The notes below the pieces were generated by a model, which was given only the letters and a program-made list of their open reading frames with translations, was not told where the DNA came from and made no database searches. A stretch of DNA of 64,000 nucleotides from Candidatus Levyibacteriota bacterium. GTDB taxonomy: Bacteria; Patescibacteriota; Microgenomatia; Levybacterales; UBA12049. How positions within the stretch are numbered: the first letter of the stretch is position 1; every line of letters begins with the position of its first letter. The translations under genes and the position numbers were made by a program. This document shows, piece after piece, positions 1 through 63,523 of this stretch. The stretch covers positions 268,104 through 332,103 of the forward strand of contig OY970292.1 of assembly GCA_963716145.1 (NCBI GenBank), written 5' to 3'.

Positions 1-1033
1 TCTTGATATTTGTCTGATATCAAACTTCTGAATATCTATCGGTTTTTTTCCTATAGATTCTAAAAAACTTGTGCATTTTTCATCGTATGTAATACCCAGA
101 AAATCAATTCTGTTGCGGTAAGAGAAGATAGCGGCGTGAAGACGCATAGAAATAAAAGAGTCCATAAGCTTAAATGAGGAGAAGAATTTAATAGGAAAAA
201 ATCCTGGGGGTACAATAATCATTGATCTTCTTATGTCTAAGTTTTTTCCAAGTGTTTTATAAATTTTTTGAGCAAATTGTTCATCATTAAAATAGCCATT
301 CTGATAGTCGCAAGCATAAAACCAAAAAGTCGTATCTTTATAATTTTTGTTTAACATTTTTTCTATTTCTGATAGAAGATACTTCTCTTCTTTAACACTG
401 TCAGGCTTAAGTAAAGCAAGTCCCATATTTTTCATTTTGGAATTATATTTTTTCTTAAAAAACTTATCTTTTAGTACTTCCGATTTTGCAGCAAGATTCA
501 TTAAGTAACTATTGTCTTTGTATAACCCTGCATGAAGTTTTTTGCTTTTCAGGTAGACAAACGAATGATAATCTCTGACTGTTACAATCTCAGCAAAACG
601 CAGCAAGTGTGTTGCAATGGATAGTATGATTGGATTTGAATTTTTATATATACCAAGACCCATTGCATATATTTTCTTTTTATAAATCCTAGGTATGATA
701 AAATATAAAAGCAGCATGTATAGCTGGTATATGAATCCAATAATTCCGCGGTCAGCCTTACATATGATTCCTCCACCACCTACAATTACAAAGTTTGACT
801 TTCTAACCTGTCTTATAATTGTCAATAACGAATATAATGAGATTGCTTTTACTTTATGAAGACTTTCTGTATTTTTTGGATTGCGGGAAACTACGCTTAC
901 TTTTAGATTTTTAATTTTACTCAGTTCATATATTTCTCCCGCCAGAATTGCTTCATCTCCTAAGTTCATAGCGCCAAAATTTCCAAAGATTACGCCACTT
1001 CTTTTTCCAGTTGGAAGGCTTTTTTTAATCATG
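1..1033 (-). CDS. polysaccharide pyruvyl transferase family protein (5' partial, runs off window)
   Basis: Hand translation of the minus strand from ATG at 1033 is open to position 1 (the stop lies outside the window, so it is absent from the ORF track). N-terminal GNFGAMNLGDEAILAGE and C-terminal MRLHAAIFS motifs are typical of the CsaB/WcaK pyruvyl transferase family. Confidence 0.55.
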
Positions 1034-1084: not shown

Positions 1085-1975
1085 TTATTTTTTCGTAGAA
1101 AGAGCTATGCTCCAGGTAGTCCCAATGTTGCTTTCTTTTCTAAACCTTGATAAAACATTTATAAAAAAATACGCTGAAAAGTTGATAGGGTTTGAAAAAA
1201 AACATTTTATAAAAGTAAAAAAATAAACTGATTTTGGAATATCATATTCCGGTTTTAAATCAAATTTAAAATATTTTTGCATTTCTAATTTAGAATTTTT
1301 AAACCGATTGGATTGTTTTAGGTGATCTGAAAAATTCCTGGGAGTTTTAAAATATATTGTCGCCTGGTCTATAAATTTAGGCTGAAGGCCCTTATCTCTT
1401 GCTGCAAAATAAAGATATGCATCGTTATTAACTATCTCATTTGGCACGTCTATTGATTTTGCAAAAGCTTGTGATAATCCTAAAAAACAACCTTTGAACA
1501 ACAAATAGTTGTTTCCTGTTCTCCATCTCTTACCAATCTCATAAGTTGCCAAAAGACCGGATTTCATAATTTTTCTAAATATACCTGATGACTTATGCGG
1601 CAATCCATTTATTCCAATAAGTCCGGACTTTTTAATACTAACTGAAGCTAAAATTTTTGATATTAATAGATTGTCGGTTATTATAATATCCGCGTCCGTC
1701 AAAAACAGAACTTCGCCTTTGAACATTTTAAATATCTGATCCAGCCTTGCTGATTTACCAATTCGTTCTTTACCAGTTACAAGTTTTATTTTTTTGCTGC
1801 TTATAGCCCCAACTTTATTAATTGTTGCATCAGTTGATCCATCTGAAATAACAATTATTTCAACAATTTTAAAATCATTCTCTGTTTGCGCGAGTATAGA
1901 CAGCAGCAGCTTTTTAATATTTGTTGATTCGTTATATGCTGGAATTCCAATTGAGACAGTAGTAATATTTTTCAT
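1085..1975 (-). CDS. family 2 glycosyltransferase
   Basis: 296 aa. N-terminal SIGIPAYNE...DGSTD motifs of GT-A/GT2. Co-oriented with neighbouring glycosylation genes. Confidence 0.8.
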   Translation of the reverse strand: MKNITTVSIGIPAYNESTNIKKLLLSILAQTENDFKIVEIIVISDGSTDATINKVGAISSKKIKLVTGKERIGKSARLDQIFKMFKGEVLFLTDADIIITDNLLISKILASVSIKKSGLIGINGLPHKSSGIFRKIMKSGLLATYEIGKRWRTGNNYLLFKGCFLGLSQAFAKSIDVPNEIVNNDAYLYFAARDKGLQPKFIDQATIYFKTPRNFSDHLKQSNRFKNSKLEMQKYFKFDLKPEYDIPKSVYFFTFIKCFFSNPINFSAYFFINVLSRFRKESNIGTTWSIALSTKK

Positions 1976-1984
1976 ATCAATAGA

Positions 1985-4957
1985 TTAGCTACCTGATACT
2001 AAAGACGCGTATGCTGGCTGAGTGATAGACACACTCTTAATGTTGTTGTCTATCAGCGCATGAAATTCCGATGCGCTTTTGTCCCAGTTGAAGTTTTTTG
2101 ACCACACTAGAGCATTTTTAGAAAGTAAATCTCTGTACTCATTATCTGTAATTAATTTCTTCATAGCTCTACTTAATTGTTCAATATTTTTTGGGTCAAC
2201 TAGTAAGCCTGTTTCTCCATCAATCACTGAGTCTATTAAACCGTTAACGCGGGATGCAATTACAGGCGTTCCATTTGCGTTGGCTTCTATGACTGTAATG
2301 CCCCATCCTTCAATTTGTGATGGCTGAACAACTACCCAGCTTTCCTTTAGCATAAGATTTTTTTGTTCTTCAGTAGCTTTGCCAACAAATGTGACGTTGT
2401 TCTCAAGCTTTAATTTAGACACCAATTTTTTAAGCTTAAGATAGCTTTCACCGGTCCCGATAATCGAAAGGGTGGCATTTTGATGGTCCGTAAGGACTCT
2501 TGCGAATGCTTTGATTGCAATATCTATGTTTTTATAATTTTTGAGTCTACCCAAATATAGAAAAGAAGGAGTGACTGTTTTTACGACTTGAGCATTGCTA
2601 TAACTATACACACCGTTAGAAACAATCTCTATATTTTCTGCAGCAGTAAATCCTATTTTAATTATCTCACGTTTGGATGATTCTGAAACTGTAATTATTT
2701 TTTTATTTTTGTAAACAATAGGCATAAGTTTTCCCTCTAAATATGCGGCTGTTTGAAGGAAGGGAAAGTGCAAAAACTCCCTAAATATTTCCTGATGCAC
2801 GTGATGAATTAAAAGTATCACAGGAATCCTTGAGTATAGAGGTGAGAAAAAGGGAATTCCATTTTCGCAATCTATAATCAGGTCAACTTTTTTCCTAAAA
2901 ATGAACATATAGTATAAAAAGGCAAAAAGATAAACCGTATATGTTCCGCCTCTTCTTATAATCTCAACCCCGTCCACCTTTTCATTTAATAGACTTTTGT
3001 TGTCATTTCCGCAAAAGACCGTTACCCGGCTTCCGGTTTTAACCCACCTTTTAGCAAGCTCATGTATATAAACCTCAGCACCTCCTGCGTAAATATGTCC
3101 CGTGTCACGCCAATTAAAAATTAAAATATGATTAAGTCTGTTCTGACTCTTTTCAGGGAAGTGCGTAGTAAGTAAATTGTAGATACTTAGAACGTTCATT
3201 TTCATACTTACAACTACTGAATTGAGACCGGTTACAATCAATTGAAGAACAGGATGAAACGTCATCGTTCCATCAAGTGCGTACTTTTTGTATTTGTTTG
3301 CTAAATGGAGGCCATGGGTAGTTTTTTCCCAATAATGAGGTTTTGCTATGAGCTGATATAAAGCAATTACTCCCGCCCAGCTCATCAATGCCCAGTAAAA
3401 GGGTATGAAAAAAACATATTTCATTAAGTCCCATTCTTTTTTTCTACCACAGGCGATCATATAGTAATAAACAAACAAAAAATTTCCAAAAATCCATGAG
3501 AATACAGCAATATAAGAAATAGGCGGGGTGTAAACTGTTTCAAGAAGCGGACCAGCGAAAGCATAGGAAGTAAAATAAAGTATGGTAATTATCCACATTA
3601 ACGGGTTTATCAGTACAAACAAAATTTTTCCACCTACAGTAAGCTGGAAAACTATATAGTGAAGTATGCCTTTTTCGTCAATAAAGTCCTTATAATTTCT
3701 TGTGTGTACCAAGTACGTCTGCATGTATCCTTTTAGCCATCTGGATCGCTGCCGTACCCAATTCTTTATTCCGCTCGTTGCTTCTTCTAACGTTGTTGAT
3801 TCAATAACAGCTGTTCGAAACCCTTTTTGAAAAAGTCTAACTCCTAAGTCAGCGTCTTCTGTAACGTTAAAAGGGTCCCATCCCTGAAGGGATTTTAGTC
3901 TTTCTGTTTTAAAATGATTACTAGTTCCACCGAGCGGGAGACTGGAGCTAAATGACTGTAATCCGGTAAGCATTATGTCAAACCACAGCGCGTACTCTAC
4001 TGTAAAAAAGCGTGTTAAGTAGTTTGCTCTCGAGTTATAATAATTAAGCTTTGCTTGAAGACACTGAACATCTTCAGGCACTGTCTGAAAACCAAGATAA
4101 GCCTTTTTAAGCTGCAAAGGGTCAGGAATATCTTCAGCATCATAAACCACTAAATATTCACCAACAGCCAAGTTTAATCCGTAATTACAGGCTTTTGGCT
4201 TGGTTTTGGGAAGAGAAGGAGGGACTATAATTTTCCTAATGTAGGAAGGTAGTATCAATTTATCAAGTATTTTAATTGTTTCTTTATCATCTTCCTCCAG
4301 AAGAAGCAGAACGTCCAATTTTTCTTTTGGGTAATCAAGATTGTTTATAGCTTCTAAGAATTGAGGAAAAATATGCGCTTCTTTATAAAGTGGGCATAAA
4401 ACCGAATAAATCGGGAGTTTTGATTCGTCAATCGATGCCAAATCAGAATTGCTAAATGCCAATTCTCTAGGGCGCTGCATGCTGCTGTATACAACAGCAA
4501 AATTGAAAATAACATCCGCAAAATAGAGAATGCTAACAATTGCGGCAACAAGCTTCAGCGTCAAAATTGGGGAGACTACTAGGCCCAAAACTATAGTAAT
4601 CGCGATCCCTCCAATTGCAGCTTTTTGGATTAGACTAAATGTTTTGGCAGCAGAAAGTGAAAATGGAAGCGTGGTATGGGTGATATATTGTTGCGTGTTG
4701 TAGACAATTCCAGCTCCTGTCATGGAGGAAGCAAATTCAGGAAGTATTGCAGTCACTTGTGGCTTTGAATCTAATTTACCAAGAATTATTGCTGCATAAT
4801 TGCCATACAACTCTCTTAACTTCTCAATTATTGTTAGAAAGTTTTCAGCAGTATTTGCTATCTCAGATCTTAGTGAAGAAATAACACTTCCTTCTGTTCG
4901 TGAGAAATCAACTATAACAACTGCGTTGTTTAGGTCAAAAGACCGTATTATGCTCAT
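1985..4957 (-). CDS. large membrane glycosyltransferase: processive GT2 (QxxRW) fused to C-terminal GT4 domain
   Basis: 990 aa. N-terminal TM segments followed by a GT2 core (DAEDIPDP, TEDADLG, QRSRW), more TM helices, then a GT4 domain (EGWGITVIEANANGTPVIASRVNGL...GETGLLV). Confidence 0.8.
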   Translation of the reverse strand: MSIIRSFDLNNAVVIVDFSRTEGSVISSLRSEIANTAENFLTIIEKLRELYGNYAAIILGKLDSKPQVTAILPEFASSMTGAGIVYNTQQYITHTTLPFSLSAAKTFSLIQKAAIGGIAITIVLGLVVSPILTLKLVAAIVSILYFADVIFNFAVVYSSMQRPRELAFSNSDLASIDESKLPIYSVLCPLYKEAHIFPQFLEAINNLDYPKEKLDVLLLLEEDDKETIKILDKLILPSYIRKIIVPPSLPKTKPKACNYGLNLAVGEYLVVYDAEDIPDPLQLKKAYLGFQTVPEDVQCLQAKLNYYNSRANYLTRFFTVEYALWFDIMLTGLQSFSSSLPLGGTSNHFKTERLKSLQGWDPFNVTEDADLGVRLFQKGFRTAVIESTTLEEATSGIKNWVRQRSRWLKGYMQTYLVHTRNYKDFIDEKGILHYIVFQLTVGGKILFVLINPLMWIITILYFTSYAFAGPLLETVYTPPISYIAVFSWIFGNFLFVYYYMIACGRKKEWDLMKYVFFIPFYWALMSWAGVIALYQLIAKPHYWEKTTHGLHLANKYKKYALDGTMTFHPVLQLIVTGLNSVVVSMKMNVLSIYNLLTTHFPEKSQNRLNHILIFNWRDTGHIYAGGAEVYIHELAKRWVKTGSRVTVFCGNDNKSLLNEKVDGVEIIRRGGTYTVYLFAFLYYMFIFRKKVDLIIDCENGIPFFSPLYSRIPVILLIHHVHQEIFREFLHFPFLQTAAYLEGKLMPIVYKNKKIITVSESSKREIIKIGFTAAENIEIVSNGVYSYSNAQVVKTVTPSFLYLGRLKNYKNIDIAIKAFARVLTDHQNATLSIIGTGESYLKLKKLVSKLKLENNVTFVGKATEEQKNLMLKESWVVVQPSQIEGWGITVIEANANGTPVIASRVNGLIDSVIDGETGLLVDPKNIEQLSRAMKKLITDNEYRDLLSKNALVWSKNFNWDKSASEFHALIDNNIKSVSITQPAYASLVSGS

Positions 4958-5072: not shown

Positions 5073-7160
5073 TTAGAGTAGAATCATCTTCAGAGTTTTA
5101 AGCTTTACAGTTAAGCTGTTAGTGTTTGAAAATAAAAATGAAATTTTTTCTTTCTCTCTTGCGAATCTTAATGCAGTGTAAGCAGTCATAGTAGATAAAA
5201 GTATCCAAATATAGTTAAAATTTCCAGTAGTGCTTGATTTACTTGCTGAGTAGGGCAAGAGATAACTTGCCTTATAAGGATTTAGTTTAATGGTGCTTGC
5301 GCCGGCAATTAGTTGATTGTTTTCTACAAGCGTAGCAGTGACTCCTAATACATTAAAAATACTGTCAGAAACAGCCGATATGCTCTCACCGAGTGGCCCA
5401 ACGCTCCCCGTAGCCGTAGCTCTTGCTGTATATTTACCGTTAACTGTTTGTGACAAAACAAATCCTGTTGAGACATGAAGTGTTTTATTAGCTGGAATAT
5501 CCCCCAGGTTAAATTCCGCGCCGCCGGCATCTTTTCCATCTTGAATAAGACGAAGATTTAGCTTTGCTCCATAAATCTTACCACCTCCCGTATTTTTGAC
5601 ATCCACAAAAAATGTAACTGTGTCTCCTGGATTTACGTGATCAGCTACATTATTTTTTGAATCTATTGCCAATGCTCCGCCACTCTCCAGACTTGAATCG
5701 CTGTTATTTGCTGCATTTACTTTATTTTCAGGTTCAGACTGAGCTAGCTGATTATCTGAGGAGGAGTTTGCAATTTGTTTTTGCCCTCCTATATTTCCAT
5801 GCCAATTACCAAAAATGTTCAAAAATCCAAAAAAACCGGTAGAATTTATAAAATTACTGTTAATAAAGTTAATCAGTGAAACCGCGCTAAAAGCATTTCC
5901 GCTGGTTATTTTACCGGATCCTCCATTTATATTGTTTCCACCAGTATTGGCGTTTGAGACAATTTTATTGTTAACAATTGCAGTATTTAAGATTTCCGTG
6001 TCAGGACATAAATCGCAAGTACTACTGTTTTGGTTTTGATCTGAAAGAGCTAAGCTTTCTCCGCCTGGCTGAGCACCAAATTCATACCAACCCACAAAGC
6101 TGCCATCCCAATCTCCCAAAATATTTATAAATAAAGATTCTATGTTTGAATTAACAAAATTTTGATTAACCAAATTCAAAACATTAACAACACTTTTTGC
6201 GTCTCCTGTATTATTATCCGAGCTAGCTGATGCTGTATTTTCTCCGGAATTTGCGCTTGAGTCTACGGTATTGCCTACAACAGCACTGTTTTGAGAATCT
6301 ATGCCTGAGGGACAATCAATGCAATCTTGGTTTTCTGGATTTTCAGGCAGGATTATGTTTCCATTTAAGCTACCGAAAACATTAATTGTTACGATGTGTA
6401 TTGTTGAATTTATAATCGTGAAGTTTACCTTGTTGAGAAGTGAAACAGTAGAATAAGCATTTCCGGTAGATATACTTGAATTCCCTTCACCCGAATCTAC
6501 AATATTATTGCCTGTGTTGGCTGTTGACACAATTGTATTTGTGACATATGCAAAATTACTAACATTCACAACAGACATATTTATAATAGGATCATTTGGA
6601 TGATCCTGAATTGCCTGAGTTGCCAACTTATAAGGATCTGAGAGATTCAAATCACCATTTTGATCTACATAAATATTTATAGTCTGCATCACAACGCTTG
6701 AGTTAACAGAATTCGAGTTGACATCATTTTCAACGCTGGTTACCGAAACAGCATCTCCTGTCGTACTTGTTGATTCTGAGTTTTGAGAATTAGAATTATT
6801 ATTACTCGCGTTATCAGATTTTGGTGAAGACCCCGATGATACATTATTGCCTCCGGTATTTGAAGTCGTAGTCGCTTCAGTACTGACAACTGCCGTATTA
6901 TCATTTGTAGCAGGTGGCGCCTCTGTCGGCGTCACAGACTCATCAAATAATGCAGGGGTTGGCGTAGGGGATACCGAATCATCTGGAGTTGGACTTGGGG
7001 TGTCAGTTGGTGTATTAGTTGGAGTTACTGCAGGTGTTTCTGTAGGTGTGAGGTCAGAAGCTACTTCCTGAGCGTAGGAAATAACAGGATAGCCGGCAGA
7101 ATAAAACAGCATCAAAACCGTAAGACTAATTGCTAAGTATTTTTTAAATATTTTTTTCAT
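5073..7160 (-). CDS. secreted repeat-containing surface protein with putative C-terminal cell-wall sorting signal
   Basis: 695 aa. Signal peptide followed by a Thr/Pro-rich linker (TPTETPAVTPTNTPTDTPSPTP). Three ~70-aa N/S/T/G-rich repeats (NTGxNN...SGxG...SGNAxSxVSL.N..N). A DUF11/CARDB-like segment. C-terminus is LPYSASKS + hydrophobic stretch + RFAREKEK. Confidence 0.6.
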   Translation of the reverse strand: MKKIFKKYLAISLTVLMLFYSAGYPVISYAQEVASDLTPTETPAVTPTNTPTDTPSPTPDDSVSPTPTPALFDESVTPTEAPPATNDNTAVVSTEATTTSNTGGNNVSSGSSPKSDNASNNNSNSQNSESTSTTGDAVSVTSVENDVNSNSVNSSVVMQTINIYVDQNGDLNLSDPYKLATQAIQDHPNDPIINMSVVNVSNFAYVTNTIVSTANTGNNIVDSGEGNSSISTGNAYSTVSLLNKVNFTIINSTIHIVTINVFGSLNGNIILPENPENQDCIDCPSGIDSQNSAVVGNTVDSSANSGENTASASSDNNTGDAKSVVNVLNLVNQNFVNSNIESLFINILGDWDGSFVGWYEFGAQPGGESLALSDQNQNSSTCDLCPDTEILNTAIVNNKIVSNANTGGNNINGGSGKITSGNAFSAVSLINFINSNFINSTGFFGFLNIFGNWHGNIGGQKQIANSSSDNQLAQSEPENKVNAANNSDSSLESGGALAIDSKNNVADHVNPGDTVTFFVDVKNTGGGKIYGAKLNLRLIQDGKDAGGAEFNLGDIPANKTLHVSTGFVLSQTVNGKYTARATATGSVGPLGESISAVSDSIFNVLGVTATLVENNQLIAGASTIKLNPYKASYLLPYSASKSSTTGNFNYIWILLSTMTAYTALRFAREKEKISFLFSNTNSLTVKLKTLKMILL

Positions 7161-7216
7161 TTTTAAGTTTTAAGTTTTAAGTTTTAAGTTTTAAGTTTTA
7201 AGTTTTAAGTTTTAAG
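7161..7216. repeat. heptanucleotide tandem repeat (TTTTAAG)x8 immediately upstream of surface-protein start codon
   Basis: Eight perfect 7-nt units counted directly. They abut the minus-strand ATG at 7160 (read as CTTAAAA repeats ending at ATG). Confidence 0.9.
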
Positions 7217-7225
7217 TTTTTAAAT

Positions 7226-7277
7226 TCTTCTGTCCCGGGGAGAACGCCCAAAGGGCTTTGTCTCCCCGAAGACAGAA
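7226..7277. promoter_or_regulatory. compound stem-loop (nested 7-bp + 5-bp + 4-bp stems)
   Basis: TTCTGTC...GACAGAA outer arms, CCGGGG/CCCCGA inner arms, GCCC-aaa-GGGC tip. Located between the stop of the 136-aa repeat protein and the heptamer repeat. Likely a terminator or regulatory hairpin. Confidence 0.4.
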
Positions 7278-7300
7278 AACAAATATAACATTAGCTAATA

Positions 7301-7711
7301 TTAGTTAATGTTTGTATTAACTACTGTTGTTACACAAGCTGTAGAGCTTGCATTTCCTGTGCTTGATCTATTGCTGGAAAGTAACCCAGCTCCTCCTGTT
7401 GTTAAATTTAAACCAGTGTTTGAAGCAGTATTAACGTTGTTTCCTACTACTCCTACGTTTGTATTAAAACCAGATCCAGTGTTTGTATTTGCAACCGTTG
7501 TTACTGTTGCGTTTGAGCTTGCATTTCCAGTTCTAGATCTATTGCTGGAAAAAAATCCACCAGTTCCCATTGTTGCGTTTAAACCAGTGTTTGAGCTGGT
7601 GTTAACGTTATTTCCAACTAAGGCAAAGTTGAAATTTGCTGCAAATGATGGAACTGCAGATGCAGCTAGCATTACCGCTGCTGCTCCTGTTGCAATTAAT
7701 TTTTTGATCAT
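7301..7711 (-). CDS. small secreted protein with two ~52-aa N/S/T/G-rich repeats (paralogous to repeats of 5073..7160)
   Basis: 136 aa. Signal peptide (AAAVMLAASAVPSFA). Two internal repeats GNNVNTxSNTGLN..T.G.GG..SSNRSxTGNASS.A.VTTV.NTN. Strong SD (AAAGGAGGTGA) 7 nt upstream. Confidence 0.6.
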   Translation of the reverse strand: MIKKLIATGAAAVMLAASAVPSFAANFNFALVGNNVNTSSNTGLNATMGTGGFFSSNRSRTGNASSNATVTTVANTNTGSGFNTNVGVVGNNVNTASNTGLNLTTGGAGLLSSNRSSTGNASSTACVTTVVNTNIN

Positions 7712-7765
7712 TATATTTCACCTCCTTTCGTTTTGGGATAGTTTCGTTTAAACGAATCTAAACAC

Positions 7766-7801: not shown

Positions 7802-7969
7802 GCAAAAAATAATTGTGTTATTCTTTTCTTCATAACCTGCCTGAATTATTAGATTTTAATTAATAGATTTTAAAATGATCCGTTGGGGCAGAATTAGCGA
7901 GCAGCGTGTATATTTTTACACCTAAAACGATTTTCTGTCAATAGCCTATAAAGTTTTATTAATTTTCTC

Positions 7970-8578
7970 TTACAGATGCGGGGCAGCGGTTACAATTAAT
8001 CTTTTTTCGTCATTGTAACCTGTACATGTGTAAAGAGTAAGCGTTTCTTTTTTTGTGGGTTCAATAGCCTCCTTTTGATTAGGATATACTGCCGCTATTT
8101 TATTGACTTTGTAGGAATACCATTTATTTTTGGTAAATACATAAATACTATCTCCATTTTTTATATCTTTTAAATTGTAAAATAGTCCCGCTCGAGCATG
8201 AGCAAAAATTACAGTATTTGAATGTTGACCCGGTGTTCCACTTCCTTCACCATATGAAGCATAAGTTTCTGATGTTTCCCAATAACCGTCAACAATTTTT
8301 GCAGGGATAACTTTAAGGTCAATATCAGACTTAGGGATGATTACTCTGACCGGGATATTTTGACTACTTGCTGAGTTAAGCAATTCAGGACTAATAGTGA
8401 TGGGGTTTTTGCTGACACGCTTTGGTAAAAATGAAGGGATCAACAAAACAGTAAGAGCAAGTAACAACAAGATTACTCCAATTATTTTATTTGCAATCAG
8501 ATAAAAAACATTTCTTTTTGGAGGTAAGACCTTTTTCTGAGTATGTTGCTTGGAGTTTTTAGATTTACTCTTAGGCAT
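7970..8578 (-). CDS. sortase (transpeptidase)
   Basis: 202 aa. N-terminal TM anchor. Catalytic His (VIFAHAR), TLxTC motif (TLTLYTCTG) and downstream Arg (RLIVTA). Confidence 0.85.
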   Translation of the reverse strand: MPKSKSKNSKQHTQKKVLPPKRNVFYLIANKIIGVILLLLALTVLLIPSFLPKRVSKNPITISPELLNSASSQNIPVRVIIPKSDIDLKVIPAKIVDGYWETSETYASYGEGSGTPGQHSNTVIFAHARAGLFYNLKDIKNGDSIYVFTKNKWYSYKVNKIAAVYPNQKEAIEPTKKETLTLYTCTGYNDEKRLIVTAAPHL

Positions 8579-9124: not shown

Positions 9125-9562
9125 ATGAAAAAACTTCTACAAAAATATAATCACAATATTCCATATGTCACACTTGTCTTAACAATTGTATCCACCCTGG
9201 CTAGCCTTTATTTTAGTGAGGTTTTGCACCTTATTCCGTGTGTTCTTTGCTGGTATCAAAGGATCGCGATGTATTCCATGGTTCCCGTTATAACAGTTGG
9301 AATCCTGTTAAAAGATAAAAATCTTCCCCTCTATATTTTACCCCTGAGCATAATTGGGTGGGGGATTGCGCTTTATCACAATCTATTGTATTACCATTTT
9401 CTGCCGGAAAGTATTGCACCATGTACTGCAGGTGTGTCCTGCACAAACCGATTTTTTCAAATCTTTGGATTTATTGATATTCCGCTAGGATCATTTATCG
9501 CCTTTACATTAATTAACATTTGTATGATAATATATCTTAAGAATTTAAAAATTAAAAAATAA
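9125..9562 (+). CDS. bdbC: disulfide bond formation protein B (DsbB/BdbC family)
   Basis: 145 aa with four TM segments. IPCVLCWYQR motif and a second Cys pair (CTAGVSC). Strong similarity to Bacillus BdbC. Confidence 0.7.
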   Translation: MKKLLQKYNHNIPYVTLVLTIVSTLASLYFSEVLHLIPCVLCWYQRIAMYSMVPVITVGILLKDKNLPLYILPLSIIGWGIALYHNLLYYHFLPESIAPCTAGVSCTNRFFQIFGFIDIPLGSFIAFTLINICMIIYLKNLKIKK

Positions 9563-9565
9563 ATT

Positions 9566-10219
9566 ATGAGTCAAGAAGCAAAAGTATTAACAGGTATAGG
9601 AATAGTTACGATTCTAATAATAGGATTTGGTGCTTTTTTCCTTGGGGGTAGTTCTACCCCTGAGAAACCTGCTCCTCCGGCAGATGCCAAAGTCTTAGTC
9701 CGCCCAGACAGCCATAAAGAGACATCGCCGTCCGCTAAAGTGATTCTTGTTGAATTTGGGGATTTCCAATGTCCTGCTTGTGGTGCTTCATATCCGATTG
9801 TAGAGCAGCTTCTTCAAGATTACAAAGGTAAAGTCAATTTTGTGTTCAGAAATTACCCTTTACCTATACATCCGAACGCTATGATTGCCGCCGAGGCCGC
9901 GGAAGCGGCAGGAGCTCAAGGAAAATACTTTGAGATGTACCAGGCGTTATTTTCTAACCAAAAAGAATGGGCGGAAAGCAAAAACCCACTGGAGATTTAT
10001 CTAAAGTATGCAAAAAATATCGGACTTGATACAGATAAATTTAAAAAGGAAGTTGAAGATAAAAAGTACGAATCAAGAATTAAAAAAGACCAGTCTGACG
10101 GCAACGCGCTTGGTGTAAATTCCACGCCCACATTTTTTATAAATGGAATAAAACAAACCGGCGGCCTGCCATATGATCAATTTAAAGTAAAAATAGATGA
10201 CGCACTTAAAAGTAAATAA
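9566..10219 (+). CDS. DsbA-family thiol:disulfide oxidoreductase (thioredoxin fold)
   Basis: 217 aa. N-terminal TM anchor. FGDFQCPACG active-site CxxC motif. Confidence 0.8.
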   Translation: MSQEAKVLTGIGIVTILIIGFGAFFLGGSSTPEKPAPPADAKVLVRPDSHKETSPSAKVILVEFGDFQCPACGASYPIVEQLLQDYKGKVNFVFRNYPLPIHPNAMIAAEAAEAAGAQGKYFEMYQALFSNQKEWAESKNPLEIYLKYAKNIGLDTDKFKKEVEDKKYESRIKKDQSDGNALGVNSTPTFFINGIKQTGGLPYDQFKVKIDDALKSK

Positions 10220-31706: not shown

Positions 31707-32340
31707 AGCGCCATTATACTATATAATTAATTTTAGATTTATGACTACCAATATTTATTTGGTCCGCCACGGCGAAGTCCACAATCCAAAACAAGTTTTG
31801 TATGGACGTTTGCCAAGATTTAGATTAACGGAAAAAGGCAAACAGCAGATTGAGCAAACAGCGAATTTTCTTAATGATAAAAATATCAATGCTATTTATT
31901 CAAGCCCGCTACTGCGCGGCCGGCAAACAGCTGAAATAATTCGAAAAAAATTGAACTTACCCAAGATTTTTTTATTAAACGGACTGCACGAAATAAAAAC
32001 GTCGGCAGAGGGACAACCTGGCAAAAAACTTGATCTGATAAACCATGACTACTATTCTCCGCCAATCTGGAAAATAAACGATGATACAATGGAGCGAATT
32101 GCAAACAGAATGAATAAATCTATTAAACAAATCCTGAAAAAATACCAGAGCAAGTCTGTGGTCGCGGTCTCCCACGGCGATCCTATTTTGATCTTAAAAT
32201 TATTTCTAAACAATTTACCTCTGCATATATCATCAATCAGAAAGGAGAAGTTTGACATAGCTCAAGGAGGAGTAGTAAGACTGCAACAAATAAACGACCA
32301 ACCAATAACTGTTAAAAGCGTTTTTACTCCAAAAATATGA
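31699..32340 (+). CDS. histidine phosphatase family protein (phosphoglycerate mutase-like)
   Basis: 213 aa. LVRHGE catalytic motif and AVSHGD. Confidence 0.8.
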   Translation: MDIAPLYYIINFRFMTTNIYLVRHGEVHNPKQVLYGRLPRFRLTEKGKQQIEQTANFLNDKNINAIYSSPLLRGRQTAEIIRKKLNLPKIFLLNGLHEIKTSAEGQPGKKLDLINHDYYSPPIWKINDDTMERIANRMNKSIKQILKKYQSKSVVAVSHGDPILILKLFLNNLPLHISSIRKEKFDIAQGGVVRLQQINDQPITVKSVFTPKI

Positions 32341-33527
32341 AACTATATAATTCGCTTAGCAAGAAAGCAGAAACTTTTATTCCGCTTGAAGAAAAGCAGG
32401 TTAAAATGTACGTTTGTGGTATAACCCCATACGACACCACTCACCTCGGCCATGCTTTCACCTATATATCTTTTGATGTATTGGTCAGGTATTTAAAATA
32501 CAAAGGCTTTGATGTAGTTTACACGCAAAATGTTACTGATATTAATGACCGGGACAATGATATCTTAAAGCGGGCCCAAGATCAAGGAATATCATGGCAA
32601 AACCTTGCTAAATTCTGGACAGATAAATTCCTTAAAGACATGCAGGATCTGAATTGGATTAAGCCCGATAACTATTTGTGGGCAAGTACGCAAATTCCCG
32701 CCATGACTGAGCTTATTGAACGTTTGATTGGTAGCAAGGCTGCTTACAAAATAAACGGGGGAGTGTACCTTGATATTCAAAAAGTGGATAATTTCGGGAA
32801 GCTTTCAGGACTTGATAAAAATAAAATGCTGACTGTTGCCAAAGAATTTGATGAGGATTTGGACAATCCTGATAAAAGAGACCCGCTTGATATAACTCTG
32901 TGGAGGCCAACTACTGAAAATCAAGCGCAACATATTCCATCCTTTGACAGCCCCTTTGGGCCCGGACGGCCCGGCTGGCATCTAGAATGCTCCGCCATGG
33001 CTATTTCATCACTTGGTGAGCAAATAGATATCCACGGGGGAGGCAGAGATCTTTTATACCCACATCATGAGAGTGAAATAGCCCAATCTGAAGGCGGGAC
33101 AGGGAAAATACCTTTTGCCAAATACTGGCTCCACACGGAAATTGTCAGCTTTGAGGGAAAGAAAATATCCAAGTCTATTGGGAACTTGGTAATGATTTCC
33201 GATCTTTTGAAAAAATATTCTTCCAACGCGATCCGCTATCTATTGCTTTCCCACCACTATAGAAAGCCATGGGAATTTAAGGAGTCTGAACTAATTGAAG
33301 CGGAAGAAAAAGTAAATAAACTAAAGCAGAAACTTAACTCTTCTCCGAGCGGACAAAGCATGCCGGACAGCAATTCAGCAATTCAGCAATTCAGCAATTT
33401 TTTAGACGATGATTTGAATACGCCTAAAGCACTTGAAATTTTGTTAAAATCAGTAGAGGCGGGATTTGTAAAAGAGGTTAAAGAAATGGCAACAATTCTG
33501 GGTTTTGCTATTAGCAATAAGCCATAG
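32337..33527 (+). CDS. cysS: cysteinyl-tRNA synthetase
   Basis: 396 aa. Class I HLGH and KISKS motifs, Cys-binding CGITPYDTTH, C-terminal DALR region (FLDDDLNTPKAL). Contains an 8-mer x4 tandem repeat at 33368-33399. Confidence 0.9.
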   Translation: MKLYNSLSKKAETFIPLEEKQVKMYVCGITPYDTTHLGHAFTYISFDVLVRYLKYKGFDVVYTQNVTDINDRDNDILKRAQDQGISWQNLAKFWTDKFLKDMQDLNWIKPDNYLWASTQIPAMTELIERLIGSKAAYKINGGVYLDIQKVDNFGKLSGLDKNKMLTVAKEFDEDLDNPDKRDPLDITLWRPTTENQAQHIPSFDSPFGPGRPGWHLECSAMAISSLGEQIDIHGGGRDLLYPHHESEIAQSEGGTGKIPFAKYWLHTEIVSFEGKKISKSIGNLVMISDLLKKYSSNAIRYLLLSHHYRKPWEFKESELIEAEEKVNKLKQKLNSSPSGQSMPDSNSAIQQFSNFLDDDLNTPKALEILLKSVEAGFVKEVKEMATILGFAISNKP

Positions 33528-36561: not shown

Positions 36562-36588
36562 CTATAGGATGCATCGTGTGAACATTTG

Positions 36589-36671
36589 TGCGGATGAGAG
36601 GAGTTGAACCTCCACGCCCTTGCGAGCACTACCACCTCAAGGTAGCGTGTATACCATTTCACCACATCCGC
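36589..36671 (-). tRNA. tRNA-Leu(GAG)
   Basis: Type II tRNA. Acceptor GCGGATG/CATCCGC, anticodon stem CTACC/GGTAG with loop TTGAGGT, long variable arm. Confidence 0.8.
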
Positions 36672-36711
36672 GTTTTGCGAAGCAAAACAACTTAAAACTC
36701 TGAACTTAGAA

Positions 36712-37111
36712 CTAAGAATGCGTTAGACTTTTGGAAAAGCCAATTAATTGCTTACCCACCTCTTCTGCCATAACTAATGCCTGATTCATTTCTTTCTGAT
36801 TAATACAACCATCATCCAATGCTAAATCAAGGCCTGCTATCACTTCTTCAAGCGATGTTAACGCCTGATTAAGAAAATGTGCTTTCTTTGTCTGTTGCCC
36901 TATTTGACCCTTCAGCAATATTTAAACACACTGACAATGCTGCTCGATTAATTTGATCAATTAGAACAAATCGTTCTGTCGCTGGTAACTTCTTTAATAA
37001 ATTCTTAACGAGCTTTCTAAATTCCTTTGACTTTTTATATACTGGAAAATCTCTAAATCTAAATAGCATATATTTTGCTGCGCAAAATAACTTTGAACAA
37101 AAAACATTCAA
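36712..37111 (-). CDS. four-helix-bundle protein (23S rRNA intervening-sequence protein family), frameshifted
   Basis: 36869..37111 has FPVYKKSKEFRKLVKNLLKKLPATERFVLIDQINRAALSVCLNIAEGSNR. 36712..36918 continues with FLNQALTSLEEVIAG... Removing one A at about 36893-36900 gives a continuous protein. Confidence 0.6.
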
Positions 37112-37185
37112 CTTAGAACTCCAAGGAATAATTGTTCTCTGTTCCTGGTTCTTAGCTCTGTGTAGTTCAGCTTCGCTGAACTATG

Positions 37186-37269
37186 TGCCGAAGAGGGGAC
37201 TTGAACCCCTACCTCTTTAACAAGACACGAACCTGAATCGTGCGCGTCTACCAATTCCGCCACTTCGGC
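37186..37269 (-). tRNA. tRNA-Leu(CAG)
   Basis: Acceptor GCCGAAG/CTTCGGC, anticodon stem CACGA/TCGTG with loop TTCAGGT, long variable arm. Confidence 0.8.
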
Positions 37270-37384
37270 GATTCGCTAATGCGAAACTAAAAACAATGGA
37301 CTTAAAACTTAGAATCATAAACTATCTAGTTCTTAGTTCCGCGTTCTTAGTTCATTGGTTGTATTTTGATTCTATCAAAAGACA

Positions 37385-62815: not shown

Positions 62816-63523
62816 ATGAAAATAACGATTTTGACACTTTTTCCCGAAATGTTTGCAGGTCCGTTTGATCATTCAATCATCAAAAATGCCAAGCAAAAAG
62901 GACTTGTGGAGATAGACTTTGTAAATATCCGTGATTTTGGAGTTGGGAGACATAGAATGGTTGATGATACTGAGTACGGCGGGGGAGTGGGAATGGTAAT
63001 GAAAGTTGACGTACTTGATGCCGCAATTAAAGCATCAAAGATCAAAGATCAAAGATCAAAGATCAAAGAAAAGATTGTATTGCTTAGCGCGACGGGCCAA
63101 ACATACAATCAAAAAACAGCAAAAGAATTTTCAAATCTTGACCATCTGATACTAATCTGCGGACATTATGAGGGAGTTGACGAACGAATAAAAAGCTATA
63201 TTGATGATGAAATTTCAATCGGGGACTTTATTCTTACGGGTGGAGAGATTCCTGCGATGCTTATAATAGATAGTGTCGCGAGGTTGATAAGCGGAGTCTT
63301 GCCACCTGGCGCGGTAGAGGACGAATCTTTTTCCAAGATAGACGATCAAACTCTACTTGAATATCCGCACTATACTAAGCCTCAAATATATGAAAACGCT
63401 GAGGTACCTGAAGTCTTGCTTTCCGGAAATCATCCAAAAATAAAAGAGTGGAGGAATAAAAAAGCCCAAGAGTTGACGAAAAAACTCCGCCCCGATCTTC
63501 TAAAAAAGCGGCACAGCGGATGA
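62816..63523 (+). CDS. trmD: tRNA (guanine37-N1)-methyltransferase
   Basis: 235 aa. MKITILTLFPEMF, GGGVGMVMK, LICGHYEGVDERI. Contains a 7-mer x5 tandem repeat at 63033-63067. Confidence 0.9.
   Translation: MKITILTLFPEMFAGPFDHSIIKNAKQKGLVEIDFVNIRDFGVGRHRMVDDTEYGGGVGMVMKVDVLDAAIKASKIKDQRSKIKEKIVLLSATGQTYNQKTAKEFSNLDHLILICGHYEGVDERIKSYIDDEISIGDFILTGGEIPAMLIIDSVARLISGVLPPGAVEDESFSKIDDQTLLEYPHYTKPQIYENAEVPEVLLSGNHPKIKEWRNKKAQELTKKLRPDLLKKRHSG

What the first reader, a model, noticed from the sequence alone, without database searches (positions are those of the whole stretch)
7161..7216. Perfect (TTTTAAG)x8 heptanucleotide repeat abutting the start codon of the large surface protein — candidate phase-variation switch
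Eight exact copies end 1 nt before the minus-strand ATG at 7160. There is no room for a conventional SD, so the repeat itself forms the 5' UTR/promoter-proximal region. Copy-number slippage would change promoter-to-start spacing or UTR length. This is a classic simple-sequence-repeat contingency mechanism for surface antigens.
Basis: partly seen in the sequence, partly recalled or inferred. Interest (0 to 1): 0.55.

Follow-up and report, generated by a model that had tools for sequence, protein, structure and literature searches.

The report
Heptamer-repeat leader of a surface-protein gene
A perfect eight-copy 7-base repeat sits directly in front of a cell-surface protein gene in a tiny uncultured (Microgenomates/CPR) bacterium; it most likely serves as an A-rich, structure-free ribosome landing stretch, and it could not be shown to be an on/off phase-variation switch.

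Summary
(CTTAAAA)x8 plus a 4-nt partial copy (7161..7220, minus-strand sense) directly abuts the ATG of a 695-aa secreted, membrane-anchored protein.

The "classic contingency switch" reading is only partly supported:
- The genome is SD-poor (4 of 53 ORFs) and largely leaderless, so a missing SD is normal here.
- No sigma-70-like promoter lies in or next to the array, so slippage cannot change promoter spacing.
- Predicted RNA accessibility of the AUG is the same for 0 to 16 copies.
- The array has no complementary partner, unlike hmw.
- Perfect 7- and 8-nt repeats also sit inside the essential genes cysS and trmD.
- Copy-number variation could not be tested.

New findings:
- In 18 orthologous Microgenomates loci the architecture is conserved: small secreted-protein gene, a locus-specific GC-rich hairpin, an A-rich and mostly SD-less spacer, then the large gene.
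- Seven of the 18 spacers carry period-7 arrays (0.38 expected, P about 2e-7). Five units share a TTAA core.

Best reading: a transcribed intercistronic leader built by heptamer slippage. It resembles the heptamer direct repeats that abut start codons in other SD-poor bacteria. It is probably length-polymorphic, and at most a rheostat.

The parts
7161..7220 (-). Heptamer array: eight perfect CTTAAAA units (7161..7216) plus a 4-nt partial unit (7217..7220). Each unit holds a TAA, so all three frames are closed on both strands.
   Evidence: TRF period 7, 8.6 copies, 100% identity, score 120; sequence read directly.
5073..7160 (-). Large gene (695 aa) whose ATG (7160..7158) directly abuts the array. 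It encodes a secreted, C-terminally membrane-anchored beta-rich protein of an uncharacterised Microgenomates family.
   Evidence: ORF and translation. 192 homologues, best non-self 47% identity, named Levybacteria/Microgenomates where named. N-terminus conserved in 28 homologues. No Pfam, NCBIfam or PDB sequence match. AF2 model mean pLDDT 65.7 with beta modules, a CARDB-like domain at 497-604 (3idu, TMt 0.62-0.66) and C-terminal helices.
7226..7279 (-). Conserved GC-rich hairpin between the small and the large gene (covariance-model match 7222..7283). Only UUU follows it, so it is not a canonical intrinsic terminator. Candidate partial terminator, mRNA-stabilising element or processing element.
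   Evidence: Fold: centroid keeps only this hairpin; the 211-nt fold has z = -4.3 against shuffles. Conserved with compensatory changes in orthologues (7 of 11 pairs; 5 of 18 pairs, consensus -21 kcal/mol). Model R1 finds it once per locus at this junction and nowhere else in 192 kb. Not reported by the terminator scan. No Rfam family.
7301..7711 (-). Upstream small gene (136 aa): signal peptide plus the same N-x-x-S-x-(A)NTG-x-N type repeats as the large protein. It carries one of only four SD-like sites among the 53 ORFs checked (GGAGG at 7725..7721, 9 nt before the ATG).
   Evidence: Translation; upstream sequence; SD census. A small gene ending ..VVNTN[IV]VGG immediately upstream is conserved in orthologous loci.
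7912..7941 (-). Best promoter-like site for the small-large gene pair: TTGACA, 18 nt, AAAAAT with TG before the second hexamer, about 200 nt before the small gene.
   Evidence: Consensus scan, 10 of 12 matches; sequence. Consensus match only; function is inferred.
7970..8578 (-). Sortase-family gene immediately upstream of the pair (context: cell-surface assembly cluster).
   Evidence: Pfam PF04203 Sortase, E = 4.8e-23; NCBIfam TIGR01076 sortase_fam, 54.7 bits, above its cut-off of 39.35.
1085..4957 (-). Two glycosyltransferase genes directly downstream of the large gene (990 aa with GT2 and GT4/GT1 domains; 296 aa GT2). Context only.
   Evidence: Pfam hits. The same 990-aa gene follows the large gene on the Logan contig.

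Best explanation
The array is the transcribed, SD-less leader of the second cistron of a two-gene surface-protein unit. Transcription probably starts upstream of the small gene. It passes, or is processed at, the conserved hairpin 7226..7279, which lacks a proper U-tract. The mRNA then carries about 70 nt of A-rich, G-free, unstructured RNA: AAUUUAAAAA followed by (CUUAAAA)8, ending at the AUG.

This stretch keeps the start codon single-stranded and clear of the very stable hairpin. It also offers an A-rich landing site for SD-independent initiation, which is the normal mode in this SD-poor organism. The heptamer periodicity is the footprint of replication slippage, which repeatedly builds and erodes 7-nt arrays in this spacer across the lineage. 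The window's array is a young or actively slipping, and so perfect, version.

Copy number is probably polymorphic. I predict it tunes expression weakly or not at all, so it is not an ON/OFF switch.

Shown: the anatomy, the conservation of the architecture, the enrichment of period-7 arrays, the absence of SD, promoter and pairing partner, and the invariance of the predicted structure. Inferred: co-transcription, the role in translation, and polymorphism.
For: 1. Conserved architecture in 18 orthologous loci: small gene, hairpin, spacer, large gene. The hairpin covaries and is specific to this junction.
2. Most spacers lack both an SD-like tetramer and a TATAAT-like box at leaderless distance from the ATG; SD-like in 3 loci, a 5-of-6 box in one (L130) and a weaker 4-of-6 TAnnnT match in L124. 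A is the commonest or joint-commonest base in the last 25 nt in 14 of 18; the window has 16 A and 0 G.
3. The genome is SD-poor and leaderless-rich: 4 of 53 ORFs are SD-like, and 18 of 53 have a -10 box 5-10 nt before the start against 3% at random positions. The large gene lacks such a box, so it needs an upstream transcript.
4. Folding with 0 to 16 copies: MFE stays at -46.9 kcal/mol, the repeat is about 70% unpaired, and AUG-region accessibility is 0.63-0.75. No complementary sequence lies nearby.
5. Period-7 arrays occupy this spacer in 7 of 18 loci: 7 arrays in 1,432 nt against 4 in 14,989 nt of other intergenic DNA, Poisson P = 1.7e-7. Rotated units share a TTAA core: ACTTAAA, GATTAAA, GATTAAG, GATTTAA, AATTTAA.
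6. In 132 (CTTAAAA)>=3 arrays from many phyla, an ORF starts within 30 nt downstream 27 times in the sense orientation against 7 in the antisense orientation. None lies inside an ORF.
7. Published parallel: TAACTGA heptamer direct repeats lie immediately upstream of start codons, overlap the RBS position and mostly lack an SD, in Beggiatoaceae, Cyanobacteria and Bacteroidetes (PMC4679880).
Against: - There are no transcript data. Co-transcription through the hairpin and the 5' end of the large-gene mRNA are inferred only from missing promoter and terminator consensus.
- A leader role does not need perfect identity of eight units. Perfection is equally what a selected hypermutable tract would show.
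- The enrichment of heptamer arrays in this spacer could be mutational (a hairpin-associated slippage hot spot) rather than functional.
- The 18 loci are not phylogenetically independent, so the P value is optimistic.
- Orthologues with spacers of 12-13 nt (L131, L126) show that a long spacer is not required.
- Secondary-structure prediction cannot see protein binding or effects on mRNA decay, which could depend on copy number.
Confidence: 0.45

Rival explanations
1. Genuine contingency locus of the rheostat type. Slipped-strand mispairing changes the number of CTTAAAA units at high frequency, and the length of the 5' leader heritably sets how much of the large surface protein is made, for example through mRNA stability, a length-dependent RNA-binding protein, or distance from the hairpin. 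This gives population heterogeneity in a surface structure, as for hmw1A/2A (ATCTTTC)n and uspA2 (AGAT)n.
For: - Perfect 8.6-copy array, the longest and only perfect array of more than 6 copies in 64 kb.
- It lies in the leader of an extracytoplasmic, anchored protein next to sortase and glycosyltransferase genes.
- Heptamer SSRs transcribed in a 5'-UTR are a proven rheostat in H. influenzae (PMC12721329). AGAT repeats in the uspA2 5'-UTR modulate expression (as cited in PMC4679880).
- Arrays in relatives are degenerate while this one is perfect, which fits ongoing slippage here.
Against: - No copy-number variant was seen. The only second assembly breaks inside the array.
- No promoter elements flank the array, so the classical spacing mechanism fails.
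- There is no hmw-like pairing partner, and predicted structure does not depend on copy number.
- Orthologues function with spacers from about 12 to more than 200 nt.
- Perfect non-triplet SSRs also lie inside cysS and trmD, where switching would be lethal. SSRs in this genome are therefore not confined to contingency genes.
Confidence: 0.25
2. Functionally neutral slippage product. The lineage is prone to expanding 7-8-nt units, and the non-coding spacer after a very stable hairpin is a tolerant, or hairpin-provoked, site where such arrays arise and decay. The array does nothing that any AT-rich spacer would not do.
For: - Period 7 is the commonest non-triplet period in the window (7 arrays) and in related loci (12), against 1-6 for periods 4, 5 and 8.
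- Arrays occur even inside essential genes.
- A published survey, as summarised in PMC4679880, found heptanucleotide repeats the most abundant long-SSR class in most genomes and proposed a polymerase-related slippage bias.
- Spacer length and sequence are unconstrained among orthologues.
- Arrays in relatives are eroded (66-90% matches, apart from a short perfect 3.3-copy core in L140), as expected without selection.
Against: - There is an 18-fold excess of period-7 arrays in this spacer over other intergenic DNA of the same loci, P = 1.7e-7.
- Five of the seven units share a TTAA core.
- Across phyla, CTTAAAA arrays show a sense-orientation bias towards downstream start codons, 27 against 7. 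A strand-blind mutational process would not produce that.
- Other heptamer arrays in relatives also end 3-14 nt before start codons (L127, L134).
Confidence: 0.2
3. Array of binding sites for a sequence-specific factor, either on DNA (repressor, activator or nucleoid protein, or a non-canonical promoter for a leaderless transcript starting at the ATG) or on RNA (an S1-, Csp- or KH-type protein reading one heptamer per domain). Copy number would set occupancy.
For: - Related units with a common TTAA(A) core recur at the same position in diverged orthologues.
- TAAAAC lies exactly 6 nt before the ATG, the spacing used by this genome's TATAAT-N6-ATG leaderless promoters.
- The best promoter-like site of the unit itself uses an A-rich -10 (TG-n-AAAAAT).
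- S1, Csp and CsrA-like proteins were proposed as readers of TAACTGA heptamers (PMC4679880).
Against: - TAAAAC lacks the -7 T, and no hexamer in the array fits TAnnnT.
- A 7-bp period puts successive sites on different faces of B-DNA (general knowledge), which argues against cooperative DNA binding.
- No candidate regulator gene is adjacent.
- Units differ between loci at 2-3 of 7 positions.
- No direct evidence for any binder.
Confidence: 0.1

Closest known systems
hmw1A/hmw2A (ATCTTTC)n heptamer SSR of Haemophilus influenzae (PMC12721329)
   Same: A heptanucleotide unit in a perfect tandem array, located upstream of and transcribed with a large surface-adhesin gene. A glycosyltransferase gene is in the same cluster. 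It acts as a graded rheostat rather than a frameshift switch.
   Different: - In hmw, about 10 repeats pair with a G-rich arm to form a long 5'-UTR hairpin cut by RNase III.
- Here the repeat has no complementary partner and is predicted to be unpaired at any copy number. The hairpin is a separate, non-repetitive element upstream.
- The array abuts the ATG with no SD.
- Copy-number variation and an expression effect are unproven here.
TAACTGA heptamer direct repeats upstream of start codons in marine Beggiatoaceae, Cyanobacteria and Bacteroidetes (MacGregor 2015, PMC4679880)
   Same: Heptamer direct repeats in forward orientation within a few nt of the start codon, overlapping the RBS position. 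The SD is mostly absent and the genome is SD-poor. A role in translation was proposed but is unproven.
   Different: - The unit sequence differs (CTTAAAA) and so does the phylum (CPR/Microgenomates).
- There are 8.6 copies here, against usually 2-6.
- In the 64 kb seen, this unit forms one array, not a genome-wide set of 169.
- Here the array sits in a conserved operon junction downstream of a conserved hairpin, and orthologues carry related heptamer arrays at the same place.
uspA2 (AGAT)n 5'-UTR repeat of Moraxella catarrhalis (Attia and Hansen 2006, as summarised in PMC4679880)
   Same: A heteropolymeric SSR inside the 5'-UTR of a surface-protein mRNA. Copy number differs between strains and expression peaks at a particular number.
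   Different: The unit is a tetranucleotide, the repeat does not abut the start codon, and a normal RBS follows it. Variation is documented there and not here.
Long simple sequence repeats with 5-11-nt units, dominated by heptanucleotides, in SSR-rich prokaryotic genomes (survey summarised in PMC4679880; cyanobacterial heptamer STRR repeats from my own knowledge)
   Same: The 7-nt period predominates among non-triplet repeats, the location is intergenic, and slippage is the presumed origin.
   Different: Those are genome-wide compositional phenomena with no fixed position. Here the arrays recur at one orthologous spacer.

Membership tests
SSR contingency locus, intergenic / 5'-UTR rheostat type (hmw, uspA2) | Perfect tandem simple-sequence tract long enough to slip | tested here: met
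   8.6 perfect copies of a 7-nt unit, 60 nt.
SSR contingency locus, intergenic / 5'-UTR rheostat type (hmw, uspA2) | Tract lies upstream of, or in the 5'-UTR of, a surface or host-interaction gene | tested here: met
   It abuts the ATG of a signal-peptide-bearing, TM-anchored protein with a CARDB-like domain. That it is transcribed is inferred, not shown.
SSR contingency locus, intergenic / 5'-UTR rheostat type (hmw, uspA2) | Copy number differs among cells, samples or strains | not testable with these tools
   The only second assembly (Logan, ERR11593400) starts with 30 nt of repeat, which I read as a k-1 break of a k=31 graph (my own knowledge of Logan), and gives no count. The nearest relatives are at most 47% identical.
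SSR contingency locus, intergenic / 5'-UTR rheostat type (hmw, uspA2) | Expression depends on copy number | tested here: inconclusive
   Only in silico: MFE and AUG accessibility are unchanged for 0-16 copies, and orthologues have spacers of 12 to more than 200 nt. This argues against dependence but is not an expression measurement.
SSR contingency locus, promoter-spacing type (repeat between -35 and -10, or between regulator site and promoter) | Repeat lies between two fixed promoter or operator elements, so a unit change alters their spacing | tested here: not met
   No promoter-like site lies in or adjoining the array. There is no TAnnnT hexamer 4-11 nt before the ATG. All 60 nt before the ATG are repeat, so the sequence from -1 to about -50 does not change with copy number.
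hmw-type 5'-UTR hairpin / RNase III mechanism | Repeats form one arm of a long hairpin with a complementary arm in the same UTR | tested here: not met
   No complementary match lies near the array. The repeat is predicted about 70% unpaired and contributes nothing to the MFE.
Heptamer direct-repeat leaders abutting start codons (MacGregor 2015) | Direct tandem heptamers, forward orientation, ending within a few nt of the start codon, overlapping the RBS position | tested here: met
   The array ends 0 nt before the ATG on the sense strand.
Heptamer direct-repeat leaders abutting start codons (MacGregor 2015) | No canonical SD in the repeat-containing leader; SD-poor genome | tested here: met
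   0 G in the last 25 nt; 4 of 53 ORFs have an SD-like tetramer.
Heptamer direct-repeat leaders abutting start codons (MacGregor 2015) | The same heptamer recurs as many sets across the genome (a network) | tested here: inconclusive
   In 64 kb there is one CTTAAAA array plus degenerate ACTTAAA/ACTTAGA arrays beside two tRNA-Leu genes. The other roughly 1.08 Mb of the genome was not available.
Heptamer direct-repeat leaders abutting start codons (MacGregor 2015) | Unit TAACTGA | tested here: not met
   The unit is CTTAAAA. The resemblance is in kind, not in sequence.
Rho-independent terminator (for the hairpin 7226..7279) | GC-rich stem followed directly by a U-tract | tested here: not met
   The stem is present, but only UUU follows, 6 nt after the GC-rich part. 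The terminator scan does not report it. Some orthologues have U4-U5, so partial termination remains possible.
Leaderless gene with TATAAT-N6-7-ATG promoter (the common type in this genome) | TAnnnT hexamer with at least 5 of 6 matches to TATAAT, ending 5-10 nt before the start | tested here: not met
   18 of 53 ORFs have one. This gene has TAAAAC, lacking the -7 T.

The most novel reading that the evidence does not exclude
Heptamer arrays with a TTAA(A) core may be a selected, conserved cis-element of this Microgenomates surface-protein operon, and may represent a wider, unexplained class of heptamer leaders in SD-poor bacteria. On this reading the arrays are an RNA landing pad read one heptamer at a time by a single-strand-binding protein (S1-, Csp- or KH-like). 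That protein recruits ribosomes to an SD-less internal cistron downstream of a conserved hairpin. The perfect array in this genome would then be the hypermutable state that lets the population tune the ratio of anchor protein to small subunit.
Probability: 0.15. Interest if true: 0.7.

Novelty: new member of a known kind. Interest (0 to 1): 0.42.

Why it matters
How ribosomes find start codons without a Shine-Dalgarno sequence on internal cistrons is poorly understood, especially in CPR/Patescibacteria. Nothing is known about gene regulation in those uncultured organisms.

Heptamer direct repeats abutting start codons have been described but never explained. This locus offers a compact test case in a lineage that is otherwise experimentally inaccessible. 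It combines a perfect array, a conserved junction-specific hairpin, and seven orthologous loci with related arrays.

If the copy number turns out to vary in reads, it would be the first candidate SSR rheostat in a CPR bacterium, acting on a likely cell-surface structure relevant to episymbiotic attachment. If it does not vary, the finding is an ordinary slippage-built AT-rich leader.

Tried and rejected
- **Copy-number comparison.** The exact-protein look-up found only the source contig and one Logan contig, which starts 30 nt into the array. Look-ups of the small gene and the sortase, meant to find the contig on the other side, found nothing on record. No variant could be examined. In relatives, the same protein from 3, 4 and 7 different samples had identical upstream regions, but those arrays are degenerate or absent.
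- **Promoter inside the repeat.** Rejected. No site passes the scan, TAAAAC lacks the -7 T, and the best -35/-10 combination I could align by eye is 8 of 12.
- **hmw-like RNA hairpin.** Rejected.
- **Known RNA family for the hairpin or leader.** None at gathering or at E <= 10 above noise.
- **Known protein family for the large or small protein.** None in Pfam, NCBIfam or PDB sequences. The fold search gave only generic Ig-like/CARDB matches.
- **Canonical terminator for the hairpin.** Not met.
- **Curved-DNA idea.** A4 tracts every 7 bp are out of phase with the helix (three units span two turns, so the bends cancel). Rejected by reasoning, not computed.
- **Literature on leaderless or SD-less translation in Patescibacteria.** No directly relevant paper found.

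Full report
**Observation**

The window holds a perfect heptanucleotide array at 7161..7220. TRF reports period 7, 8.6 copies, 100% matches and score 120, the highest-scoring array in 64 kb. On the minus strand it reads AAAA(CTTAAAA)x8 and is followed with no intervening base by ATG (7160..7158). That ATG opens a 695-codon ORF, 5073..7160. The ORF's N-terminus matches the conserved N-terminus of 28 homologues, so the start is sound. The last 25 nt before the ATG have 16 A, 6 T, 3 C and no G. A second, independent assembly (a Logan contig of run ERR11593400) begins with 30 nt of the same repeat followed by the same gene. My hand estimate is about 1e-24 expected occurrences.

**Organism and gene**

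The protein has 192 detectable homologues. The best non-self match is 47% identical. Where a source names them, they come from Candidatus Levybacteria, Microgenomates or Patescibacteria. The source contig is 1.14 Mb.

The protein has no Pfam, NCBIfam or PDB-sequence match. Its sequence and a medium-confidence AlphaFold model (mean pLDDT 65.7) show:
- a signal-peptide-like helix;
- a disordered Pro/Thr-rich linker;
- four beta modules;
- a CARDB-like Ig domain (residues about 497-604; 3idu, TMt 0.62-0.66);
- C-terminal helices.

The neighbours are a sortase and a small secreted protein upstream, and two glycosyltransferases downstream. "Large surface protein" is a fair description.

**Genomic background changes the meaning of "no SD"**

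Among 53 ORFs in the window, only 4 have an SD-like tetramer 4-20 nt before the start. Random positions give 10%. In contrast, 18 have a TATAAT-like hexamer (at least 5 of 6 matches) ending 5-10 nt before the start, against 3% at random. The organism therefore mostly uses leaderless mRNAs, or SD-less initiation on internal cistrons. The large gene has neither signal. The hexamer at the leaderless position is TAAAAC, which lacks the critical last T, and the promoter scan finds nothing in or next to the array.

**What lies upstream**

Going upstream on the minus strand from the array:
- 9 unique bases after the partial unit;
- a very stable GC-rich hairpin at 7226..7279;
- the stop codon of a 136-aa secreted protein gene, 7301..7711.

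That small gene carries one of only four SD-like sites among the 53 ORFs checked (GGAGG, 9 nt before its ATG). A TTGACA-N18-(TG)AAAAAT promoter-like site lies about 200 nt further up. Only UUU follows the hairpin, and the terminator scan does not call it.

**Comparison with relatives**

I recovered 18 distinct orthologous loci that include the upstream region. All show the same order: a small secreted-protein gene ending ..VVNTN[IV]VGG, a GC-rich hairpin, a spacer, then the large gene.

The hairpin is conserved in sequence in its lower stem (GTCC.../...GGGAC.GAAGAA). It shows compensatory changes in the upper stem (7 of 11 pairs; 5 of 18 pairs, consensus -21 kcal/mol). A covariance model built from ten copies finds it exactly once per locus, at this junction, and nowhere else in 192 kb including the whole window. 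It is therefore a junction-specific element and not the lineage's generic terminator. It matches no Rfam family.

The spacers from hairpin to ATG range from about 12 nt (L131, L126) to more than 200 nt (L141, L156). Most lack both signals: three have an SD-like tetramer, and one (L130) has a 5-of-6 TATAAT-like box at leaderless distance, plus a weaker 4-of-6 match in L124. A is the commonest or joint-commonest base in the last 25 nt in 14 of the 18.

**Recurrent heptamer arrays**

Seven of the 18 spacers contain a period-7 tandem array:

| Locus | Unit | Copies |
|---|---|---|
| window | CTTAAAA | 8.6, perfect |
| L145 | GATTAAA | 5 |
| L130 | TAAGGAT | 4 |
| L140 | AATTTAA | 3.3-5.4 |
| L141 | GATTTAA | 3.1 |
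| L132 | AAGCAAT | 3.3 |
| L124 | TAGCTTT | 3.1 |

Against other intergenic DNA of the same loci (4 arrays in 14,989 nt), finding 7 arrays in 1,432 nt of spacer has Poisson P = 1.7e-7. The loci are not phylogenetically independent, so this P value is optimistic. Rotated into register, five units share a TTAA core: ACTTAAA, GATTAAA, GATTAAG, GATTTAA, AATTTAA.

Period 7 is also the commonest non-triplet period overall. Other heptamer arrays in relatives end 3-14 nt before other start codons (L127, L134). Only the window's array is both long and perfect.

**The same unit elsewhere**

None of the 132 arrays lies inside an ORF. An ORF of at least 100 aa starts within 30 nt downstream 27 times in the CTTAAAA-sense orientation against 7 times in the antisense orientation (12 against 3 within 10 nt). 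This strand bias points to an RNA-level or translation-related constraint, or at least to tolerance of A-rich sense-strand leaders.

**Tests of the phase-variation mechanism**

1. **Promoter spacing.** This is excluded, because everything from -1 to about -50 is repeat and no promoter element flanks it.
2. **hmw-type mechanism.** In H. influenzae the ATCTTTC repeats pair with a G-rich arm to form an RNase III-cleaved hairpin (PMC12721329). Here no complementary sequence lies nearby. Folding the transcript with 0, 1, 2 ... 16 units gives the same MFE (-46.9 kcal/mol), about 70% unpaired repeat, and AUG-region accessibility of 0.63-0.75.
3. **Spacer length.** It is not constrained among orthologues.
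4. **SSRs in essential genes.** Perfect non-triplet SSRs also lie in frame inside cysS ((CAGCAATT)x4) and trmD ((ATCAAAG)x5). Gain or loss of a unit there would shift the reading frame of an essential gene. In this genome an SSR is therefore not by itself a mark of a contingency gene.
5. **Actual copy-number variation.** This could not be examined.

**Interpretation**

The best-supported reading (confidence 0.45) is that the array is the transcribed, SD-less, A-rich and unstructured leader of the second cistron of a small-subunit/large-anchor gene pair. Slippage with a 7-nt bias repeatedly builds such arrays in this spacer. The hairpin upstream probably sets the ratio of the two products by partial termination, processing or 3'-end stabilisation of the small-gene mRNA. 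That role for the hairpin is inferred. Copy number is likely polymorphic but is predicted to matter little.

The closest descriptive precedent is the TAACTGA heptamer direct repeats that abut SD-less start codons in Beggiatoaceae, Cyanobacteria and Bacteroidetes (PMC4679880). The same paper summarises a survey in which heptanucleotides were the most abundant long-SSR class.

The rivals are:
- a true rheostat-type contingency locus (0.25);
- a neutral slippage product, possibly provoked by the hairpin (0.20);
- a binding-site array or non-canonical promoter (0.10).

**Verdict**

The most interesting outcome is the conserved junction-specific hairpin together with the recurrent heptamer arrays at the orthologous spacer. 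These make this a tractable example of the unexplained heptamer-leader phenomenon, in a CPR lineage.

Noticed in passing
window 33368..33399 (in ORF 32337..33527, +): A perfect (CAGCAATT)x4 octamer repeat lies in frame inside the cysteinyl-tRNA synthetase gene (Pfam tRNA-synt_1e, E = 8e-103) and encodes ..DSNSAIQQFSNF... Gain or loss of one unit would frameshift an essential gene.
   Followed up: partly
window 63029..63069 (in ORF 62816..63523, +): An (ATCAAAG)x5 heptamer repeat (TRF 5.7 copies, 97%) lies in frame inside trmD (Pfam tRNA_m1G_MT, E = 1.5e-54) and encodes ..KASKIKDQRSKIKEK... It is a second non-triplet SSR in an essential gene, which suggests a genome prone to 7-8-nt expansions.
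   Followed up: partly
whole window (53 ORFs): The genome is SD-poor and leaderless-rich. Only 4 of 53 ORFs have an SD-like tetramer. 18 of 53 have a TATAAT-like box, often with an extended TGn, ending 5-10 nt (typically 6-7 nt) before the start codon, against 3% at random positions.
   Followed up: yes
window 7222..7283 (-); L122, L123, L130, L141, L145, L155-L158 at the same junction: A conserved, covarying GC-rich hairpin (lower stem GTCC/GGGAC, flanked by UUCUUUU and GAAGAA) lies between the small and large surface-protein genes. A covariance model finds it once per locus and nowhere else in 192 kb. It has no Rfam family and is a candidate new cis-regulatory RNA motif of Microgenomates.
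   Followed up: partly
window 36689..36718 and 37301..37353: Degenerate heptamer arrays of the same type (ACTTAAA, ACTTAGA, and TTCTTAG on the other strand) flank the two tRNA-Leu genes (36588..36671 and 37185..37269, both minus strand).
   Followed up: no
window 9537..9563: An A/T-rich tandem repeat ((TTAAAAAT)x3, or period 7 x2.7) runs up to 2 nt before the ATG of the DsbA-like gene 9566..10219, the second gene after dsbB. It is another SD-less, repeat-built leader in the same window.
   Followed up: no
window 58216..58289 (in recG ORF 57159..59255, +): An (AAAGTAT)x4.6 imperfect heptamer array has an 18-nt, 94%-complementary inverted partner 31 nt downstream, inside the RecG helicase coding sequence. 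It may be a small palindromic insertion.
   Followed up: no
L002-L121 (genome-contig hits): (CTTAAAA)>=3 arrays occur in more than 120 loci across Bacteroidota, Cyanobacteria, Desulfobacterota, Gammaproteobacteria and others, and the scan was truncated. They are often mixed with variant heptamers (CTCAAAA, CCTAAAA, CTTAGAA, TAACTGA). None is inside an ORF, and they show a sense-strand bias towards a downstream start codon (27 against 7 within 30 nt).
   Followed up: partly
L127 79..104 and 507..583; L134 1535..1558 and 1924..1954: Other Microgenomates genes also have period-7 arrays just before their start codons. Examples are (AAAATTA)x10.9 ending 3 nt before an ATG at L127:587, and (GATAAAG)x3.4 ending 8 nt before an ATG at L134:1567.
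   Followed up: no
window 7287..7312: A 16-nt, 94%-complementary palindrome (AACATTAGCTAATATT / AATATTAGTTAATGTT) overlaps the stop codon of the small gene, just upstream of the conserved hairpin.
   Followed up: no
window 7301..7711 and 5073..7160: The small (136 aa) and large (695 aa) proteins share the same short repeat motif (N-x-V/I-x-x-x-S-x-(A)NTG-x-N). This suggests a secreted subunit and a membrane-anchored relative that may assemble into one surface structure. Neither belongs to any curated family.
   Followed up: partly
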